Source: the human T2T-CHM13v2.0 reference genome, Homo sapiens. From it: DNA of 64,000 nucleotides. The DNA is taken from the NCBI RefSeq assembly GCF_009914755.1, contig NC_060946.1, one strand, 5' to 3'. The notes beneath the pieces were generated by a model that worked only from the letters and a program-made list of their open reading frames with translations, ran no database searches and was not told the origin of the DNA. Shown piece after piece: positions 1,366-60,446 of the stretch (the first letter of the stretch is position 1; each line of letters starts with the position of its first letter). A program made the position numbers and the translations under genes.

Positions 1366-1830
<465 letters not shown>

Positions 1831-2037
1831 CTATCCGTGGCCAGGCGTTCTCTACGTAGGAATAAAGTCCTTCTCTGCCCCTGTGGATGGAAGGCAGGGC
1901 TAAGAAATACTTTTTTAGACTGTCATCTGAAATTCTTATTCTATTATCACAGCGGTGAATAGGAAGGGCTCCCAGCTTTCCTTTTCTCTCAGCCCAAGGC
2001 CTCATTCTCCATCTCGTTTGTATATAAAAATATTCTT

Positions 2038-2378
<341 letters not shown>

Positions 2379-3224
2379 TTAGAATCTCAGCTACACTCGC
2401 CACAAGCTGTGGGACCTCAGACAAGATAGCAGTCATCCTCTGTGCCTCCATTTCCATATCTGTAAAACAGAGATAATAATGCCCACTTTAGATGATGTTA
2501 ATCATAATCCTGGTAGTTATTTATGTAGTATCAGCTGTATGCCATTTAATCCTCATCACAACACTGTAAGTTTGGTATAACTATCCAAATTTTAGGAATG
2601 AGTAGATAAAGATATTGAGCTTGGAGGTCGAGCTGTGCACATAAGATCTCAAAGCCAGTGGTTGCTAAACTGGGACTCAAATCTAGGGCTGCATATCCCA
2701 ACCCAGGTTCCTTCCACTACACTAAACTGTCTTTAGAGAACAATGAAGTGATGTTTGGGAAAACATGTTGCAAGAAATAAAACACTATGAAATGTGAGTT
2801 GTTGTTATTACTCTCTCCCTATAGAACATGTAAATAAGTTTGTGGACATGCAGTTCTGTGCAGAAGACGCAAAGTCCTCCTAGTTCATTACGAAACTCCT
2901 CCTGTTGGGGAGCTCAATGTAGACGTGGATCATCCCAGCCCTTGTTATCTGCCAGGCACTAGCCTTTATCTCTGTTGTGTCTGTAATCTGCATAATAGCC
3001 CTATGAGGCAGGTACTCTTATCCCTATTTTACAGGTGAAAAAAATGAGGCACAGAGAGAAGCTGGAACTTATCTCAAATCACTCGGTTTGCAGTAGAGTT
3101 GGTTCCTGAGTCCAGGTGTGTTTGAACCAATAGACCAGTTTGATTCCAAATAGAACCCGTGTTCTCTGACTCCTATGGTAAGCTGCTAAGACTCAGGACA
3201 CCAATATAGGCCACACTTGTTTTC

Positions 3225-3532
<308 letters not shown>

Positions 3533-3944
3533 AACCACACCTGTTCTCTTGAGATCTGAGCTTTCTATTAGATCTTTAGGATAAATGGCAACAGGGCCAG
3601 GAATATGCTGATGGGTCTAAGGGAGGAATGTGTCTGAGGAGGGTGTTAGATTAAACATACATGTGGACAACAAAATTCCTGGTCAGTACATACTCTGGGG
3701 TCAACGAGTGTCTGGGAAGCACTATTTAGTTTCAATATATGTTAGAATACCAAGTTAGCACATTCATTCTGGTAGGTGGAAAACAGATTTTGCACACAAG
3801 GAAATTTGACACACCCTGGGGTCTCATGGCCAGTTCACGAGGCTGGCTCTAGATTTGGAACTAAGATGAGCACGATTCTGACCCTGAGGCTCGCACCACT
3901 GGCCACCTCTGGCGAGTACACATGGTGTGCCAGGCGCTGTGCTA

Positions 3945-4193
<249 letters not shown>

Positions 4194-17309: not shown

Positions 17310-17841
17310 ATATATTTTTATATATATATTATATATATGTAAATATATTATATATAATTATATATATATATTATATATAATTATATATATATTATATATA
17401 ATTATTTATATAATATATATATTATATATTATATATCTATGCTGTATATATATTATATATAATATATATATATTATATTATATATATCTATGCTGTATAT
17501 ATATTATATATATATCATATATAATATATAACATATATTATAACATATATTATATATCATATATAATATATATCATATATAATATATAACATATAATATA
17601 TATCATATATAATATATATCATATATAATATATAACATATATTATATAATATATATCATATATAATATATAACATATATTATATAATATATATTTATAAT
17701 ATATAATATATGATATATATAATATATAATATATATTATATATTATACATGTTATATATATAATATATGATATATATAATATATATAACATATATTATAT
17801 ATAATATTAATATATATTATATATATATATTATATATAATT
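17310..17841. repeat. Complex (TA)n low-complexity repeat, about 530 bp
   Basis: Almost exclusively A/T, with atatatc, ataac and ctatgctgt interruptions. Confidence 0.95.
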
Positions 17842-34073: not shown

Positions 34074-34626
34074 ACTCACACACAGGTGCCTCTCCTTTAC
34101 CATCAGGAAGCGTGCCTCTTCTTTACCATCACTCACACACAGGTGCCTCTCCTTTACCATCAGGAAGCGTGCCTCTTCTTTACCATCACTCACACACAGG
34201 TGCCTCTCCTTTACCATCAGGAAGCGTGCCTCTTCTTTACCATCACTCACACACAGGTGCCTCTCCTTTACCATCAGGAAGCGTGCCTCTTCTTTAACCA
34301 TCACTCACACACAGGTGCCTCTCCTTTACCATCAGGAAGCGTGCCTCTTCTTTACCATCCATCACTCACACACAGGTGCCTCTCCTTTACCATCAGGAAG
34401 CGTGCCTCTTCTTTAACCATCACTCACACACAGGTGCCTCTCCTTTACCATCAGGAAGCGTGCCTCTTCTTTGCCATCACTCACACACAGGTGCCTCTCC
34501 TTTACCATCAGGAAGCGTGCCTCTTCTTTAACCATCACTCACACACAGGTGCCTCTCCTTTACCATCAGGAAGCGTGCCTCTTCTTTACCCGCACTCACA
34601 CACAGGTGCCTCTCCTTTACCATCAG
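34074..34626. repeat. VNTR, about 9.6 copies of a 57-bp unit
   Basis: Unit actcacacacaggtgcctctcctttaccatcaggaagcgtgcctcttctttaccatc with small indels. Confidence 0.97.
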
Positions 34627-43134: not shown

Positions 43135-43317
<183 letters not shown>

Positions 43318-43542
43318 TTACAACTGTGCTTTTTCATTCCACTTGAGCTGCCAGAGGACACTCCTACTACTAGTCTCATAGGTCCCAACTGTGTTGCCGA
43401 CTTATCTGATTAGACCACTTGATCCAGAGAAGCAGCAAGGAGGAGCAGACAGACTGTGACTTTAGGTAAGTTACTCCCCTCCCTCCAAGGCTGTTTCCTC
43501 ATCTATAAAATATATTAAATGGTACCTACTTCCCAGGTGTTA

Positions 43543-43950
<408 letters not shown>

Positions 43951-44085
43951 TCAGATTTAAGGCTCCTTCAGAAGAAGACAGAAACATCCTCATCTGAAAC
44001 TTGGGATTCCTACTCAGTTGCATTTTAGATACTAAAAAAACAAACCCCATGAAAAGAGCATCAAGGCTGAGGGAAAGGTTTTTGC

Positions 44086-44155: not shown

Positions 44156-44426
44156 CTTCAAAAACCAAGAAAAAGGGGGGCATTAGGGATTAATGCAAAT
44201 CCTGGAGAAGGGTGGGGTTAGGGTCTAGGCGTTTCCTCTTGTTGGTGCACAAAAGACCTGGAGCAAAGTTTGTGGACAGTGCCTTGTCTTTCCAGGTGGT
44301 AGGTCCTGGTGGCCTCAGTGTCACTGACATCATCCCCCAGAGTGTCCCCACTGTCTCACACTGCCCCTTCTTCTAGGAGTATGTGATTTAGAGCAGGAAT
44401 TAGAAATTAAACAAGCTATTGTTTAA

Positions 44427-44669
<243 letters not shown>

Positions 44670-45858
44670 TAGCCAGGATGGTCTTGATCTCCTGACCTCC
44701 TCATCCGCCCACCTCGGCCTCCCAAAGTGCTGGGATTACAGGTGTGAGCCACCACGTCCAGCCTCTTCTAGGGTTCTTATAAGGGTCAAAAATAAAGTGT
44801 TTAATGTATTTTAAAACACTGGCAAAGAGGCTACCAGATAGGAGCTGTTCAATAAGGGGTCTCTATTATCTACCCTTGACCTCTCAAGAGAGACTTCTCT
44901 TGATCTCTGACTCTTCCCCACCCCCATCCTCCTACGCCCCTGAAAAGGAAGACAGAAAAATGAATGCTAGTGACCCAAGTTGCATTGATTGTCAACCAAG
45001 AGTCCAGCAATGAGCTTGGATAACAAAGTTAACAAACAAGTATGAGTCTGTGTTTTTGCCCTCAAGGGACTTACACTCTATTTGGAGAGCCAAATCAGCA
45101 CTCGTGGAACAATTAAATGCTAAACTGCTGTGATTACGAATCAAAGTGAGGTCAACGTGGGCCAGAGCAGTCACAGAGGACTGTCCAGAAGAGGCGGACA
45201 TGAGTGTTGGTGGCATCAGGCTCCTGAGCTTGATAAACTGGGAAATACCTCTCCAGGCCTCCCCCATCTTTCCCTTGCATCAGCACTCCCTGGTCTGCAT
45301 GAGTGAAAGGTACTGGGCATGTGTGCAGGGGTGTGTGTATGTGTGTGTGCCAGTGGTGGGGGGGCGGTCACAGGGGTTAGTCTATGTATTAACATTGTTG
45401 CTCCAATTAAGTAAGCTGAAATTTAAGGCATGAGGAATGAATTGGATGGGTATGAGTCACTGTAGCAATATAGCAATATCTCTGATCTTTACCAATGTCA
45501 TTATAGCAGACACTGTATGGCCTGGAAGGATGGATAAGATTTGCACAGAAAGAGGGGAGAAAGGATAGTTGAATGCTGAAAGAAGAGCAAGTTTTGGGGG
45601 GAAAGATGGTAAGACCAGCACTGGGCTGAGTTTACCTTTGAGATGACTTCAGGGCCTACAAGCAGGGCTGTTCTCCAGGAAGGCAACTCCCAAACCGGAC
45701 CAATGACCGGCATTTTGGGGAAGTATTCAAATACACAGATTCCCGGGCCTTTGCATTAGAGATGCTTATTTCCTGGGTCTGCATTGGGTCCTGAATTTTT
45801 TATGCATTTATAGTGGCTCCTGAATAAAAAATTAGCCGGGCGTGGTGGCACGTGCCTA

Positions 45859-46216
<358 letters not shown>

Positions 46217-46289
46217 CTTAAGTGCAGTTAAAAATAAGAAACAAATACACGACATTGCCAAAACCCAAAATAGCCAAAAAGACACTTAC

Positions 46290-46327
46290 AGATGATTCAC
46301 GCCTGTGTTCTTCCATCTTGTGGGAGC
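46290..46327 (-). other. Candidate hidden exon A (38 nt; APTRWKNTGVNH)
   Basis: tagcAG acceptor and perfect GTAAGT donor; phase 0 entry fits the upstream coding exon. Confidence 0.5.
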
Positions 46328-46381
46328 CTGCTACACAACAGCTACTTGCTTAACATTTAGCACTCCTGCCTCCCGAAAAGA

Positions 46382-46382
46382 T

Positions 46383-46420
<38 letters not shown>

Positions 46421-46430
46421 GCGCGTGTGT
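46382..46430. repeat. (TG)n(CG)n microsatellite
   Basis: Uninterrupted purine-pyrimidine alternation. Confidence 0.95.
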
Positions 46431-47009
46431 TTGAGAATTATTGAAGGGTTTGTATTTTTTCCCAATAAAAATGTACCAAAATTAACCTTCAGACTTCTCA
46501 TTTCAGGTCCACATGTAAGGATCTCATAAGTCACCATTCTGTCCCAATAATAAGTAAAGCTGAATAAACTGAAAAATCAACAACTCTTCTTAGATCATTC
46601 AGAGAAGTGAGGTCACAGGGCAAACTACTGCCTGAAAACTGAACAGACAGGTAGGTAGATACAGAGAATGCCAACTGGCAGGAGAATAAACCCATGGGCA
46701 GAAACCTCCATGGGAACCAGTAGCAAAGCCAAAACTGTCATAAATGAATTCTGGAGGCTCAGTGTAGACACCCTGAGAGGTAAAAACTCCAGCCATCACA
46801 AAAATGAACTCAAAATGAATCAAAATCAAATGTAAACATAAAACTATAAAACCCCTAGAAGACAAGAGGAGAACACCTAGGTGACCTTGGGTTTGGCCAT
46901 GACTTTTTAGATATGACACAGAAGGTACAATCCATGAAGGAAATGATAAGTTAGATTTCGTTAAAATTAAAAATTTCTGCTCTGTGAAAAGACACTGTCA
47001 AGAGAATGA

Positions 47010-48596
<1,587 letters not shown>

Positions 48597-48743
48597 GATG
48601 TGGAGGAAACTAAAAAGCATACTAAGTGAAAGAAGCCAACGTAAAAAGGCTACGTACTATATGATTCCAACTATATGGCATTATGGGAAAGGTAAAACTG
48701 GAGAGAGTAAAAACAACAGTGGTTCCCAGGGGTTAGGGAGTAA

Positions 48744-51700
48744 AAAGAGGTGAACAGGTGGAGCGCAGAGGACTGTTGGGACAGCGAAACTATGCTGCGT
48801 GACACTACAATGGTAGATACATATCATTAAAGAGGTGAACAGGTGGAGCGCAGAGGACTGTTGGGACAGCGAAACTATGCTGCGTGACACTACAATGGTA
48901 GATACATGTCATTAAAGAGGTGAACAGGTGGAGCGCAGAGGACTGTTGGGACAGCGAAACTATGCTGCGTGACACTACAATGGTAGATACATGTCATTAA
49001 AGAGGTGAACAGGTGGAGCGCAGAGGACTGTTGGGACAGCGAAACTATGCTGCGTGACACTACAATGGTAGATACATGTCATTAAAGAGGTGAACAGGTG
49101 GAGCGCAGAGGACTGTTGGGACAGCGAAACTATGCTGCGTGACACTACAATGGTAGATACATGTCATTAAAGAGGTGAACAGGTGGAGCGCAGAGGACTG
49201 TTGGGACAGCGAAACTATGCTGCGTGACACTACAATGGTAGATACATGTCATTAAAGAGGTGAACAGGTGGAGCGCAGAGGACTGTTGGGACAGCGAACC
49301 TATGCTGCGTGACACTACAATGGTAGATACATGTCATTAAAGAGGTGAACAGGTGGAGCGCAGAGGACTGTTGGGACAGCGAACCTATGCTGCGTGACAC
49401 TACAATGGTAGATACATGTCATTAAAGAGGTGAACAGGTGGAGCGCAGAGGACTGTTGGGACAGCGAACCTATGCTGCGTGACACTACAATGGTAGATAC
49501 ATGTCATTAAAGAGGTGAACAGGTGGAGCGCAGAGGACTGTTGGGACAGCGAACCTATGCTGCGTGACACTACAATGGTAGATACATGTCATTAAAGAGG
49601 TGAACAGGTGGAGCGCAGAGGACTGTTGGGACAGCGAACCTATGCTGCGTGACACTACAATGGTAGATACATGTCATTAAAGAGGTGAACAGGTGGAGCG
49701 CAGAGGACTGTTGGGACAGCGAACCTATGCTGCGTGACACTACAATGGTAGATACATGTCATTAAAGAGGTGAACAGGTGGAGCGCAGAGGACTGTTGGG
49801 ACAGCGAACCTATGCTGCGTGACACTACAATGGTAGATACATGTCATTAAAGAGGTGAACAGGTGGAGCGCAGAGGACTGTTGGGACAGCGAACCTATGC
49901 TGCGTGACACTACAATGGTAGATACATGTCATTAAAGAGGTGAACAGGTGGAGCGCAGAGGACTGTTGGGACAGCGAACCTATGCTGCGTGACACTACAA
50001 TGGTAGATACATGTCATTAAAGAGGTGAACAGGTGGAGCGCAGAGGACTGTTGGGACAGCGAACCTATGCTGCGTGACACTACAATGGTAGATACATGTC
50101 ATTAAAGAGGTGAACAGGTGGAGCGCAGAGGACTGTTGGGACAGCGAACCTATGCTGCGTGACACTACAATGGTAGATACATGTCATTAAAGAGGTGAAC
50201 AGGTGGAGCGCAGAGGACTGTTGGGACAGCGAACCTATGCTGCGTGACACTACAATGGTAGATACATGTCATTAAAGAGGTGAACAGGTGGAGCGCAGAG
50301 GACTGTTGGGACAGCGAACCTATGCTGCGTGACACTACAATGGTAGATACATGTCATTAAAGAGGTGAACAGGTGGAGCGCAGAGGACTGTTGGGACAGC
50401 GAACCTATGCTGCGTGACACTACAATGGTAGATACATGTCATTAAAGAGGTGAACAGGTGGAGCGCAGAGGACTGTTGGGACAGCGAAACTATGCTGCGT
50501 GACACTACAATGGTAGATACATGTCATTAAACAGGTGAACAGGTGGAGCGCAGAGGACTGTTGGGACAGCGAAACTATGCTGCGTGACACTACAATGGTA
50601 GATACATGTCATTAAAGAGGTGAACAGGTGGAGCGCAGAGGACTGTTGGGACAGCGAAACTATGCTGCGTGACACTACAATGGTAGATACATGTCATTAA
50701 AGAGGTGAACAGGTGGAGCGCAGAGGACTGTTGGGACAGCGAAACTATGCTGCGTGACACTACAATGGTAGATACATGTCATTAAAGAGGTGAACAGGTG
50801 GAGCGCAGAGGACTGTTGGGACAGCGAAACTATGCTGCGTGACACTACAATGGTAGATACATGTCATTAAAGAGGTGAACAGGTGGAGCGCAGAGGACTG
50901 TTGGGACAGCGAAACTATGCTGTGTGACACTACAATGGTAGATACATGTCATTAAAGAGGTGAACAGGTGGAGCGCAGAGGACTGTTGGGACAGCGAAAC
51001 TATGCTGCGTGACACTACAATGGTAGATACATGTCATTAAAGAGGTGAACAGGTGGAGCGCAGAGGACTGTTGGGACAGCGAAACTATGCTGCGTGACAC
51101 TACAATGGTAGATACATGTCATTAAAGAGGTGAACAGGTGGAGCGCAGAGGACTGTTGGGACAGCGAAACTATGCTGCGTGACACTACAATGGTAGATAC
51201 ATGTCATTAAAGAGGTGAACAGGTGGAGCGCAGAGGACTGTTGGGACAGCGAAACCTATGCTGCGTGACACTACAATGGTAGATACATGTCATTAAAGAG
51301 GTGAACAGGTGGAGCGCAGAGGACTGTTGGGACAGCGAAACCTATGCTGCGTGACACTACAATGGTAGATACATGTCATTAAAGAGGTGAACAGGTGGAG
51401 CGCAGAGGACTGTTGGGACAGCGAACCTATGCTGCGTGACACTACAATGGTAGATACATGTCATTAAAGAGGTGAACAGGTGGAGCGCAGAGGACTGTTG
51501 GGACAGCGAACCTATGCTGCGTGACACTACAATGGTAGATACATGTCATTAAAGAGGTGAACAGGTGGAGCGCAGAGGACTGTTGGGACAGCGAACCTAT
51601 GCTGCGTGACACTACAATGGTAGATACATGTCATTAAAGAGGTGAACAGGTGGAGCGCAGAGGACTGTTGGGACAGCGAACCTATGCTGCGTGACACTAC

Positions 51701-54700
51701 AATGGTAGATACATGTCATTAAAGAGGTGAACAGGTGGAGCGCAGAGGACTGTTGGGACAGCGAACCTATGCTGCGTGACACTACAATGGTAGATACATG
51801 TCATTAAAGAGGTGAACAGGTGGAGCGCAGAGGACTGTTGGGACAGCGAACCTATGCTGCGTGACACTACAATGGTAGATACATGTCATTAAAGAGGTGA
51901 ACAGGTGGAGCGCAGAGGACTGTTGGGACAGCGAACCTATGCTGCGTGACACTACAATGGTAGATACATGTCATTAAAGAGGTGAACAGGTGGAGCGCAG
52001 AGGACTGTTGGGACAGCGAACCTATGCTGCGTGACACTACAATGGTAGATACATGTCATTAAAGAGGTGAACAGGTGGAGCGCAGAGGACTGTTGGGACA
52101 GCGAACCTATGCTGCGTGACACTACAATGGTAGATACATGTCATTAAAGAGGTGAACAGGTGGAGCGCAGAGGACTGTTGGGACAGCGAACCTATGCTGC
52201 GTGACACTACAATGGTAGATACATGTCATTAAAGAGGTGAACAGGTGGAGCGCAGAGGACTGTTGGGACAGCGAAACTATGCTGCGTGACACTACAATGG
52301 TAGATACATGTCATTAAAGAGGTGAACAGGTGGAGCGCAGAGGACTGTTGGGACAGCGAAACTATGCTGCGTGACACTACAATGGTAGATACATGTCATT
52401 AAACAGGTGAACAGGTGGAGCGCAGAGGACTGTTGGGACAGCGAAACTATGCTGCGTGACACTACAATGGTAGATACATGTCATTAAAGAGGTGAACAGG
52501 TGGAGCGCAGAGGACTGTTGGGACAGCGAAACTATGCTGCGTGACACTACAATGGTAGATACATGTCATTAAAGAGGTGAACAGGTGGAGCGCAGAGGAC
52601 TGTTGGGACAGCGAAACTATGCTGCGTGACACTACAATGGTAGATACATGTCATTAAAGAGGTGAACAGGTGGAGCGCAGAGGACTGTTGGGACAGCGAA
52701 ACTATGCTGCGTGACACTACAATGGTAGATACATGTCATTAAAGAGGTGAACAGGTGGAGCGCAGAGGACTGTTGGGACAGCGAAACTATGCTGCGTGAC
52801 ACTACAATGGTAGATACATGTCATTAAAGAGGTGAACAGGTGGAGCGCAGAGGACTGTTGGGACAGCGAAACTATGCTGCGTGACACTACAATGGTAGAT
52901 ACATGTCATTAAAGAGGTGAACAGGTGGAGCGCAGAGGACTGTTGGGACAGCGAAACTATGCTGCGTGACACTACAATGGTAGATACATGTCATTAAAGA
53001 GGTGAACAGGTGGAGCGCAGAGGACTGTTGGGACAGCGAAACTATGCTGCGTGACACTACAATGGTAGATACATGTCATTAAAGAGGTGAACAGGTGGAG
53101 CGCAGAGGACTGTTGGGACAGCGAAACTATGCTGCGTGACACTACAATGGTAGATACATGTCATTAAAGAGGTGAACAGGTGGAGCGCAGAGGACTGTTG
53201 GGACAGCGAAACTATGCTGCGTGACACTACAATGGTAGATACATGTCATTAAAGAGGTGAACAGGTGGAGCGCAGAGGACTGTTGGGACAGCGAAACTAT
53301 GCTGCGTGACACTACAATGGTAGATACATGTCATTAAAGAGGTGAACAGGTGGAGCGCAGAGGACTGTTGGGACAGCGAAACTATGCTGCGTGACACTAC
53401 AATGGTAGATACATGTCATTAAAGAGGTGAACAGGTGGAGCGCAGAGGACTGTTGGGACAGCGAAACTATGCTGCGTGACACTACAATGGTAGATACATG
53501 TCATTAAAGAGGTGAACAGGTGGAGCGCAGAGGACTGTTGGGACAGCGAAACTATGCTGCGTGACACTACAATGGTAGATACATGTCATTAAAGAGGTGA
53601 ACAGGTGGAGCGCAGAGGACTGTTGGGACAGCGAAACTATGCTGCGTGACACTACAATGGTAGATACATGTCATTAAAGAGGTGAACAGGTGGAGCGCAG
53701 AGGACTGTTGGGACAGCGAAACTATGCTGCGTGACACTACAATGGTAGATACATGTCATTAAAGAGGTGAACAGGTGGAGCGCAGAGGACTGTTGGGACA
53801 GCGAAACTATGCTGCGTGACACTACAATGGTAGATACATGTCATTAAAGAGGTGAACAGGTGGAGCGCAGAGGACTGTTGGGACAGCGAAACTATGCTGC
53901 GTGACACTACAATGGTAGATACATGTCATTAAAGAGGTGAACAGGTGGAGCGCAGAGGACTGTTGGGACAGCGAAACTATGCTGCGTGACACTACAATGG
54001 TAGATACATGTCATTAAAGAGGTGAACAGGTGGAGCGCAGAGGACTGTTGGGACAGCGAACCTATGCTGTGTGACACTACAATGGTAGATACATGTCATT
54101 AAAGAGGTGAACAGGTGGAGCGCAGAGGACTGTTGGGACAGCGAACCTATGCTGTGTGACACTACAATGGTAGATACATGTCATTAAAGAGGTGAACAGG
54201 TGGAGCGCAGAGGACTGTTGGGACAGCGAACCTATGCTGTGTGACACTACAATGGTAGATACATGTCATTAAAGAGGTGAACAGGTGGAGCGCAGAGGAC
54301 TGTTGGGACAGCGAAACTATGCTGTGTGACACTACAATGGTAGATACATGTCATTAAAGAGGTGAACAGGTGGAGCGCAGAGGACTGTTGGGACAGCGAA
54401 ACTATGCTGTGTGACACTACAATGGTAGATACATGTCATTAAAGAGGTGAACAGGTGGAGCGCAGAGGACTGTTGGGACAGCGAAACTATGCTGTGTGAC
54501 ACTACAATGGTAGATACATGTCATTAAAGAGGTGAACAGGTGGAGCGCAGAGGACTGTTGGGACAGCGAAACTATGCTGTGTGACACTACAATGGTAGAT
54601 ACATGTCATTAAAGAGGTGAACAGGTGGAGCGCAGAGGACTGTTGGGACAGCGAACCTATGCTGTGTGACACTACAATGGTAGATACATGTCATTAAAGA

Positions 54701-54779
54701 GGTGAACAGGTGGAGCGCAGAGGACTGTTGGGACAGCGAAACTATGCTGTGTGACACTACAATGGTAGATACATGTCAT
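48744..54779. repeat. VNTR, 71 copies of an 85-bp unit, derived from an L1 3' UTR
   Basis: Unit aaagaggtgaacaggtggagcgcagaggactgttgggacagcgaa(a/c)ctatgctgcgtgacactacaatggtagatacatgtcatt; period 85 read directly from the coordinates. Confidence 0.98.
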
Positions 54780-54987
54780 CATTTGTCCAAATTCGTAGAA
54801 TGTACACCAAGAATCCTAGTGTAAACTCTGAATGTCGAGTGATGATGATGTAACAATGTAGGTCCGTTAATTCTAACTAATGTGCCACTATCTTATGGAA
54901 TGTCAACAGTGGGGGAGATTGTGCATGCGCAGGAACAGAGGGTGTATGAAAAAAGTGTACTCTCTGCTCGATTTCGCTGTGAACTTA

Positions 54988-55146
<159 letters not shown>

Positions 55147-55331
55147 TTAGCCGGGTATGGTGGCACACGGCTGTAGTCCCAGCTACTCGGGAGGCTGAGG
55201 CAGGAAAATCACTTGAAAGGGAGGCGGAGGTTGCAGTGAGCCGACATCGCACCACTGCACTCCAGTCTGGCGACAGAGCAAGTCTCTGTCTCAAAAATAA
55301 ATAAAGTTTATTGGCCGGGCGCGGTGGCTCA

Positions 55332-55664
<333 letters not shown>

Positions 55665-55744
55665 TCAAATAAATGGAGAGGCCCCAGGGCACTGCAACAC
55701 CTTGATGATCCCCGGGGCCCTTCCCTGTCAGAAGCTTTGTCTCA

Positions 55745-60446
<4,702 letters not shown>

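What the first reader, a model, noticed from the sequence alone, without database searches (positions are those of the whole stretch)
48744..54779. 6-kb, 71-copy VNTR born from an 85-bp slice of an ancient L1 3' UTR, making up half of intron 3
Seen: 71 near-identical 85-bp units; unique L1 3' UTR sequence runs into copy 1 and resumes after copy 71, so one internal segment of a dead L1 was amplified. The array is 6036 bp of an 11.6-kb intron. Near-identity of the copies inside a very old element implies recent expansion. Inference: length is probably highly polymorphic and may be collapsed in short-read-era references, making it a hidden structural variant that could affect expression or splicing of FAM227A. 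It lies about 2.4 kb upstream (in transcript order) of the hidden exons.
Basis: partly seen in the sequence, partly recalled or inferred. Interest (0 to 1): 0.7.

Follow-up and report, generated by a model that had tools for sequence, protein, structure and literature searches.

The report
Known L1-derived VNTR inside FAM227A
This is a real 71-copy tandem repeat grown from a piece of an old jumping gene inside FAM227A; the site is already catalogued and already linked to the activity of neighbouring genes, which it likely marks rather than controls, and the one detail not found in print is that this long version carries about 200 methylation-target (CpG) sites where the reference version has three.

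Summary
In detail: 71 units of 85 bp at 48744-54779, 52% of an 11,610-bp FAM227A intron, amplified in place from one slice of an old L1 3' UTR. It is not hidden. The locus maps exactly to GRCh38 chr22:38,644,314-38,644,569, three units. It was listed in 2012 as an L1MC1-derived repeat and in 2021 as an expression VNTR: 24 gene-tissue rows for CBY1, RP3-508I15.9, FAM227A, JOSD1 and GTPBP1, 23 with negative slope. Causality is not shown. Two other repeats in the gene give stronger FAM227A signals in the same tissues, so tagging of a regulatory haplotype is the likeliest reading. I found no support for a splicing effect. One detail I did not find in print: the reference unit differs from the CHM13 unit at positions 22 and 55, so the reference is not a simple collapse of this allele, and the long allele holds 203 CpGs against 3, about 12 kb from the FAM227A/CBY1 shared promoter. 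Population lengths and ape states could not be obtained.

The parts
48744..54779 (+). 85-bp minisatellite, 71 units, variant order G A5 B14 A E A3 C A3 F2 B10 A2 E A18 D3 C4 D C; 203 CpGs; GRCh38 chr22:38,644,314-38,644,569 (3 units)
48598..48743 (+). unique L1 3' UTR sequence running into unit 1 (L1MC1 per Ahmed and Liang 2012)
   Evidence: collinear in dispersed paralogs, mean identity 80% in 33 of 34; subfamily name
54780..55012 (+). remainder of the L1 3' UTR after unit 71; 4 nt missing at the junction relative to 27 of 34 paralogs
47851..48252 (+). broken L1 ORF2 remnant, residues 1102-1239 of LINE-1 ORF2p
   Evidence: stops read as X
46829..47086 (+). broken L1 ORF2 remnant, residues 966-1056 of LINE-1 ORF2p
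   Evidence: stops read as X
48296..48597 (+). Alu-like insertion that splits the L1 between ORF2 end and 3' UTR (two more at about 47086-47390 and 47467-47760)
   Evidence: read from the sequence, family name recalled; paralogs are contiguous across the gap
44156..55765 (-). host intron of FAM227A, 11,610 bp (5,829 bp with three units)
   Evidence: hub annotation
55766..55848 (-). FAM227A exon upstream of the array in transcript order; its donor lies 986 bp from the array
   Evidence: hub annotation

Best explanation
This is a single-locus minisatellite amplified in place from 85 bp of an old L1 3' UTR, 71 copies here and 3 in the reference, which likely grew by block duplication of units and likely tags, rather than drives, a haplotype that changes expression of FAM227A, CBY1 and neighbours. 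Shown: the array, its L1 origin, the single-locus amplification, the exact identity with the catalogued GRCh37/38 locus, the clustering of unit variants, and (in print) the association of repeat dosage with expression. Inferred: a first tandem duplication at a break with at most 1-2 nt of homology and a 4-nt loss at the 3' edge; later growth by unequal exchange or gene conversion of multi-unit blocks; two unit lineages (reference-type with 1 CpG, CHM13-type with 3); linkage, not the array, as the main source of the expression signal.
For: Origin; L1MC1 positions 750-827 in Ahmed and Liang 2012 suppl. table 3. Block growth: 17 runs of like units against 48.6 expected, 0 of 10,000 shuffles as low; a B-block followed by the rare E variant occurs twice, E at units 22 and 44, units 11-21 equal 32-42; Course 2021 reports duplications and deletions as the main source of VNTR allele differences (passage). 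Tagging: in Lu 2023 the FAM227A lead repeats are two other repeats in the gene, p 1.9e-12 in skin and 3.1e-12 in nerve, against 2.9e-10 and 3.4e-6 for this one; five genes over more than 120 kb respond and FAM227A changes sign between skin and nerve; only 162 (1.7%) of eVNTRs fine-mapped as likely causal in Lu 2023; a distal SNP eQTL for FAM227A and JOSD1 is reported.
Against: No conditional analysis or fine-mapping of this locus was seen, so tagging is inferred from priors and neighbours. The locus had no row in the 5 Lu 2023 files searched (one cut, one further file not searched), so the two studies may never have compared the three repeats directly. 23 of 24 slopes are negative, which also fits a direct repressive effect. 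Garg et al. report that 76.6% of eVNTR pairs keep their direction after conditioning on the lead SNV, though only 1,434 of 12,784 stay significant. A 5.8-kb, 200-CpG difference is a larger change than most eVNTRs.
Confidence: 0.62

Rival explanations
1. The long, CpG-gained allele is itself a dosage-dependent cis-repressor: a methylated 6-kb block about 12 kb from the shared FAM227A/CBY1 CpG-island promoter lowers transcription or blocks an enhancer contact.
For: 203 CpGs against 3 in the reference allele; CpG observed/expected 0.63 against 0.28 in the rest of the window; 23 of 24 eQTL slopes negative, strongest for genes at or near this promoter; promoter island at window-equivalent 66501-67500, 11.8-12.0 kb away; methylation-linked VNTRs are described as a class.
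Against: No methylation data seen. GC is 48.5%, below island level. CpG-island promoters usually resist methylation spreading over 12 kb (own knowledge). FAM227A slope is positive in nerve. Other repeats in the gene give stronger FAM227A signals.
Confidence: 0.24
2. The array changes FAM227A splicing or 3' processing (exon 55766-55848, the neighbouring minor-spliceosome intron, or cryptic exons near 46030-46340).
For: It doubles the intron (5,829 to 11,610 bp) and starts 986 bp from the donor; the next intron upstream has a U12-type donor.
Against: Best donor-like site in the unit scores 1.5 against 8.4-12.0 for 11 true donors; best acceptor 4.7 against 4.1-14.2 for 13 true acceptors and is beaten by 15% of the other AG sites in the intron (small home-made matrix). 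No poly(A) hexamer on the transcribed strand. Most eQTL rows concern genes that do not contain the array (21 of 24). The candidate exons are unannotated and match no Pfam family above cut-off.
Confidence: 0.06
3. One of the two lengths is an artefact: the reference lost units in cloning or assembly, or the CHM13 array is over-expanded, and people vary little.
For: Three identical units in the reference (100% identity) could be the remains of a longer reference-type array; no population length table was reachable.
Against: The reference unit has the alternative base at position 22 found in 0 of 71 CHM13 units, so it did not come from this allele. The CHM13 array has ordered variant blocks. Repeat dosage varies enough among GTEx donors to give p 4e-11. 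The nearby 57-bp array is 553 bp in both assemblies.
Confidence: 0.08

Closest known systems
This same locus in Ahmed and Liang 2012 (PMC3389668, suppl. table 3, TR 169417887)
   Same: hg19 chr22:39040321-39040574, 85-bp unit, matched to L1MC1 750-827 on +; one of 601 L1-associated and 7,276 TE-derived minisatellites.
   Different: There 2.99 copies of a unit that differs at positions 22 and 55; the 71-copy allele and its variant order are not in that table.
This same locus as eVNTR in Lu et al. 2021 (PMC8275641, supplementary file MOESM8, TR_locus 75208)
   Same: GRCh38 chr22:38644314-38644569; 24 significant rows: RP3-508I15.9 10, CBY1 8, FAM227A 3, JOSD1 2, GTPBP1 1. The peer-review file calls CBY1 a previously highlighted eVNTR.
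   Different: Total k-mer dosage only; no unit-type analysis, L1 origin, CpG content or conditioning on SNVs was seen; CBY1 does not occur in the final main text, and the review file implies the locus failed the stricter quality filter.
Large intronic human-expanded VNTRs (set of 467 in Course et al. 2021, PMC8327921)
   Same: Long intronic array, near-identical units, clustered variants that point to block duplication.
   Different: No row for FAM227A or these coordinates in the 3 supplementary files searched (file 1 not searched). Human specificity is untested here.
Methylation- and expression-linked VNTRs (Garg et al., bioRxiv 2020.12.16.423078)
   Same: Copy number of large-motif repeats associated with local CpG methylation and expression (passages).
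   Different: Whether this locus is in their tables is unknown; the supplements were not read.

Membership tests
TE-derived minisatellite (Ahmed and Liang 2012) | unit of at least 20 bp, GC at least 40%, at least 2 copies, at least 95% unit identity | tested here: met
   85 bp, GC 48%, 71 copies, 99%
TE-derived minisatellite (Ahmed and Liang 2012) | unit at least 70% like a TE, or overlapping one by a full period | tested here: met
   75% mean identity to 34 of 34 dispersed copies, collinear flanks; listed by the authors
LINE-1 | ORF2p homology upstream of and co-oriented with the 3' UTR | tested here: met
   Pfam found 0 families in 6 frames, so this rests on the PDB sequence search
L1MC1 subfamily | best match to the L1MC1 consensus among L1 subfamilies | not testable with these tools
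   no repeat library here; name taken
VNTR (polymorphic in humans) | copy number differs between human haplotypes | tested here: met
   3 units in GRCh37/38 against 71 in CHM13; dosage varies in GTEx; allele spectrum not seen
eVNTR | dosage associated with expression at 5% gene-level FDR | not testable with these tools
   reported in print: 24 rows, q from 1.2e-7 to 0.041; not recomputed
causal (fine-mapped) eVNTR | posterior inclusion probability of at least 0.8, or independence from the lead SNV | not testable with these tools
   no row in the Lu 2023 files searched, but the locus may not have been genotyped there
human-specific expansion | short or single-copy in apes | not testable with these tools
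   no ape genomes held; Sulovari 2019 not held; absent from Course 2021 list
CpG island | GC above 50% and CpG observed/expected above 0.6 (thresholds recalled) | tested here: not met
   GC 48.5%, observed/expected 0.63
CTCF-site array (L1MC1 copies can supply CTCF sites, PMC9902604) | CTCF core motif in the unit | tested here: inconclusive
   best match to a recalled 13-bp consensus has 3 mismatches; 596 of 2000 shuffled units do as well or better; no ChIP data

The most novel reading that the evidence does not exclude
A unit of a dead L1 gained two CpGs and was then amplified from a few copies to about 70, so human haplotypes differ by some 200 CpGs (and 61 copies of a GCGTG core that the reference unit lacks) 12 kb from the FAM227A/CBY1 bidirectional promoter; this motif-plus-length switch, not nearby SNPs, is the causal variant for the multi-gene eQTL at this 22q locus.
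Probability: 0.15. Interest if true: 0.62.

Novelty: already known. Interest (0 to 1): 0.3.

Why it matters
As a kind it is ordinary: about 23% of human minisatellites come from transposable elements, and this one is already tabulated. It matters modestly because GRCh38 holds only 3 of the 71 units and a different unit, so reference-based genotyping and methylation arrays see it poorly. FAM227A expression has been tied to prostate cancer risk through a SNP-based study. If the CpG-gained long allele proved causal, it would be a clean example of unit sequence and copy number changing together to create a regulatory element from dead L1 DNA, and it can be tested now with public long-read genomes.

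Tried and rejected
Pfam scan of six L1-remnant frames: 0 families; the PDB sequence search settled the point instead. Dispersed or multi-locus satellite: rejected, the two-unit query matches only here. Coding repeat: longest stop-free stretch 32 codons on + and 62 on -. G-quadruplex: no pattern match. Unusual DNA hairpin: z -0.75 against 200 shuffles. PRDM9 13-mer (recalled): 0 in the array, 1 in 4 kb of flank. CTCF array: no better than chance. Cryptic splice sites and sense poly(A) signals: weak or absent. GC-biased conversion as the driver: only two clear weak-to-strong changes, the third may be an indel product, and both could equally be CpG decay in the reference; not claimed. Main-text searches: FAM227A+VNTR 0 papers, FAM227A+tandem repeat 1 unrelated, CBY1+VNTR 1 unrelated, coordinates 5 papers on unrelated topics. 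Supplements with no row for the locus: Course 2021, PMC13263140 (2 small files), Lu 2023, Gustafson 2024 (6 files, one not searched). Not held: Audano 2019, Sulovari 2019, Mukamel 2023, Ebert 2021 and two further ids that I recalled for Garg 2021 and Hoyt 2022; their tables may already give lengths, ape states or fine-mapping.
Full report
Observation. Tandem Repeats Finder reports an 85-bp period, 71.0 copies, 99% matches at 48744-54779. Cutting at an invariant anchor gives 68 units of 85 bp, two of 86 and a last unit of 84; the 68 differ by 0.81 nt on average. The array is 6036 bp, 52% of the 11,610-bp intron 44156-55765. The unit types are strongly clustered: 17 runs against 48.6 in shuffles, 0 of 10,000 as low.

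Host element. Upstream of the array, frames read with X at stops match LINE-1 ORF2p residues 966-1056 and 1102-1239 in the PDB, on the + strand, antisense to FAM227A. Pfam found nothing in the same six frames. Genome searches with left flank plus unit 1 and with unit 71 plus right flank both give dispersed copies at 69-80% identity. In all 14 dispersed loci aligned, one unit runs directly into the right flank; 12 of 14 also carry the whole left flank contiguously. With 20 more loci, 34 of 34 cover the unit at 75% mean identity (these were picked for similarity, so identity is biased upward). A two-unit query matches full length only at this locus. So one internal slice of one old L1 was amplified in place. 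The last unit lacks 4 nt that 27 of 34 paralogs have, and the junctions show at most 1-2 nt of homology; the first duplication is therefore inferred to be a break-repair or template-switch event and not slippage between long flanking repeats.

The locus is known. A 57-bp array at 34074-34626 is 553 bp in both assemblies; its offset places window position 48744 at GRCh38 38,644,314, exactly the start of a 255-bp (3-unit) repeat in Lu et al. 2021. In that paper's supplementary file MOESM8 the locus has 24 significant gene-tissue rows: RP3-508I15.9 10, CBY1 8, FAM227A 3, JOSD1 2, GTPBP1 1; 23 slopes are negative; best p 4.1e-11. The peer-review file names CBY1 as a previously highlighted eVNTR and implies it was among 2,870 loci removed by a stricter filter; the final main text does not mention it. 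Ahmed and Liang 2012 list hg19 chr22:39040321-39040574 as 2.99 copies of an 85-bp unit matched to L1MC1 750-827, in a survey that found 7,276 TE-derived minisatellites, 601 of them L1-associated. What I saw of each paper: Ahmed and Liang, parts 1-3 of 4 of the text and one supplement row; Lu 2021, passages, supplement rows and part 4 of the review file; Lu 2023, passages and two supplement rows; Course 2021, passages and a supplement search; Garg preprint, Fan 2024, Choudhary 2023, the KZFP paper PMC10547255, the Repbase review PMC5753468, PMC11975116, PMC11701250 and PMC13345107, passages only; PMC13263140 and PMC11610458, supplement searches without hits.

What I did not find in print. Comparing the 2012 reference unit with the CHM13 units shows two differences: position 22 (A in the reference, G in 71 of 71 units here) and position 55 (T in the reference, C in 61 of 71 here, T in unit 26 and units 63-71). 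Both CHM13 states make a CpG, so the unit has 3 CpGs instead of 1 and the allele 203 instead of 3. Paralogs mostly share the reference state (A in 32 of 34, T in 30 of 34; 0.4 CpG per monomer), which suggests that the reference unit is ancestral and the CpG-rich unit arose and then expanded. This polarity is inferred: both differences are also what CpG deamination would produce from the CHM13 state, and only ape orthologs can decide. Either way the reference is not a collapsed copy of this allele, although it could be a shortened copy of another. The C at 55 also creates a GCGTG core (recalled as the AhR/ARNT core) in 61 units, without the longer consensus; a 5-mer is weak evidence. The claim 'not in print' rests on main-text searches and six papers' supplements, some cut or partly unsearched; tables of Garg 2021, Mukamel 2023, Sulovari 2019, Audano 2019 and Ebert 2021 were out of reach and may hold more.

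How it most likely works. Growth: a B-block followed by the rare E variant appears twice, 21-22 units apart, and the reference-like state persists at the 3' edge, which fits multi-unit duplication by unequal exchange or conversion (inferred; Course 2021 describes the same pattern in other VNTRs). Effect on genes: association is shown in print, cause is not. For tagging: two other repeats in FAM227A give stronger signals in the same two tissues, five genes respond, the FAM227A sign flips between skin and nerve, and only 1.7% of eVNTRs fine-mapped as likely causal in Lu 2023. For a direct effect: near-uniform negative slopes, a 5.8-kb CpG-dense block (observed/expected 0.63 against 0.28), and a CpG-island promoter 11.8-12.0 kb away. 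I put tagging at 0.62, direct repression at 0.24, artefact at 0.08 and splicing at 0.06.

Splicing and other mechanisms. On the transcribed strand the unit has no credible donor, one mediocre acceptor and no poly(A) hexamer (matrix built from 11 donors and 13 acceptors of this gene, so crude). The exon-like pieces 2.4 kb downstream in transcript order are unannotated and gave no Pfam match above cut-off; I did not test them further. No G-quadruplex pattern, unusual fold, PRDM9 motif or CTCF match above chance was found.

Verdict. Real, correctly described, already catalogued twice. The residual value is a concrete and cheap test: unit type and length across long-read haplotypes, then fine-mapping. 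Interest 0.3.

Noticed in passing
window 1622-4035 and 55849-60210 (- strand): Two FAM227A introns have minor-spliceosome (U12-type) signatures: one begins ATATCCTT and ends AC, the other begins GTATCCTT and ends AG (consensus recalled).
   Followed up: partly
window 43254-44085 (- strand): The annotated intron begins GCAAAA, an unusual GC donor; other transcripts end this exon at 44046 (hub annotation).
   Followed up: no
window 48744-54779 (+ strand): Every internal unit junction creates an ATTAAA hexamer, 70 copies, antisense to FAM227A.
   Followed up: no
window 51209-51380: The two 86-bp units sit between an A block and a B block and carry the letters of both types, so the B variant may have come from an insertion plus a deletion and not from a substitution.
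   Followed up: partly
window 46030-46340 (- strand): Two exon-like pieces with plausible splice sites and an acidic open frame of about 50 codons; unannotated, no Pfam family above cut-off.
   Followed up: partly
window 34074-34626 and 17310-17838: A 57-bp array (553 bp in both assemblies) and an AT-rich array (529 bp here, 392 bp in the GRCh38 row, boundaries may differ) are the lead FAM227A motif eQTLs in Lu 2023.
   Followed up: partly
L067 4501-5500 (window-equivalent 66501-67500): CpG island at the head-to-head FAM227A/CBY1 start sites, observed/expected 0.81-0.88.
   Followed up: partly
G000 C13, C14, C21, C22 short-arm hits: Several 336-bp hits with the same score lie on the acrocentric short arms and on C2, C3, C4, C18, which suggests that one copy of this L1 family sits inside a segmental duplication.
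   Followed up: no
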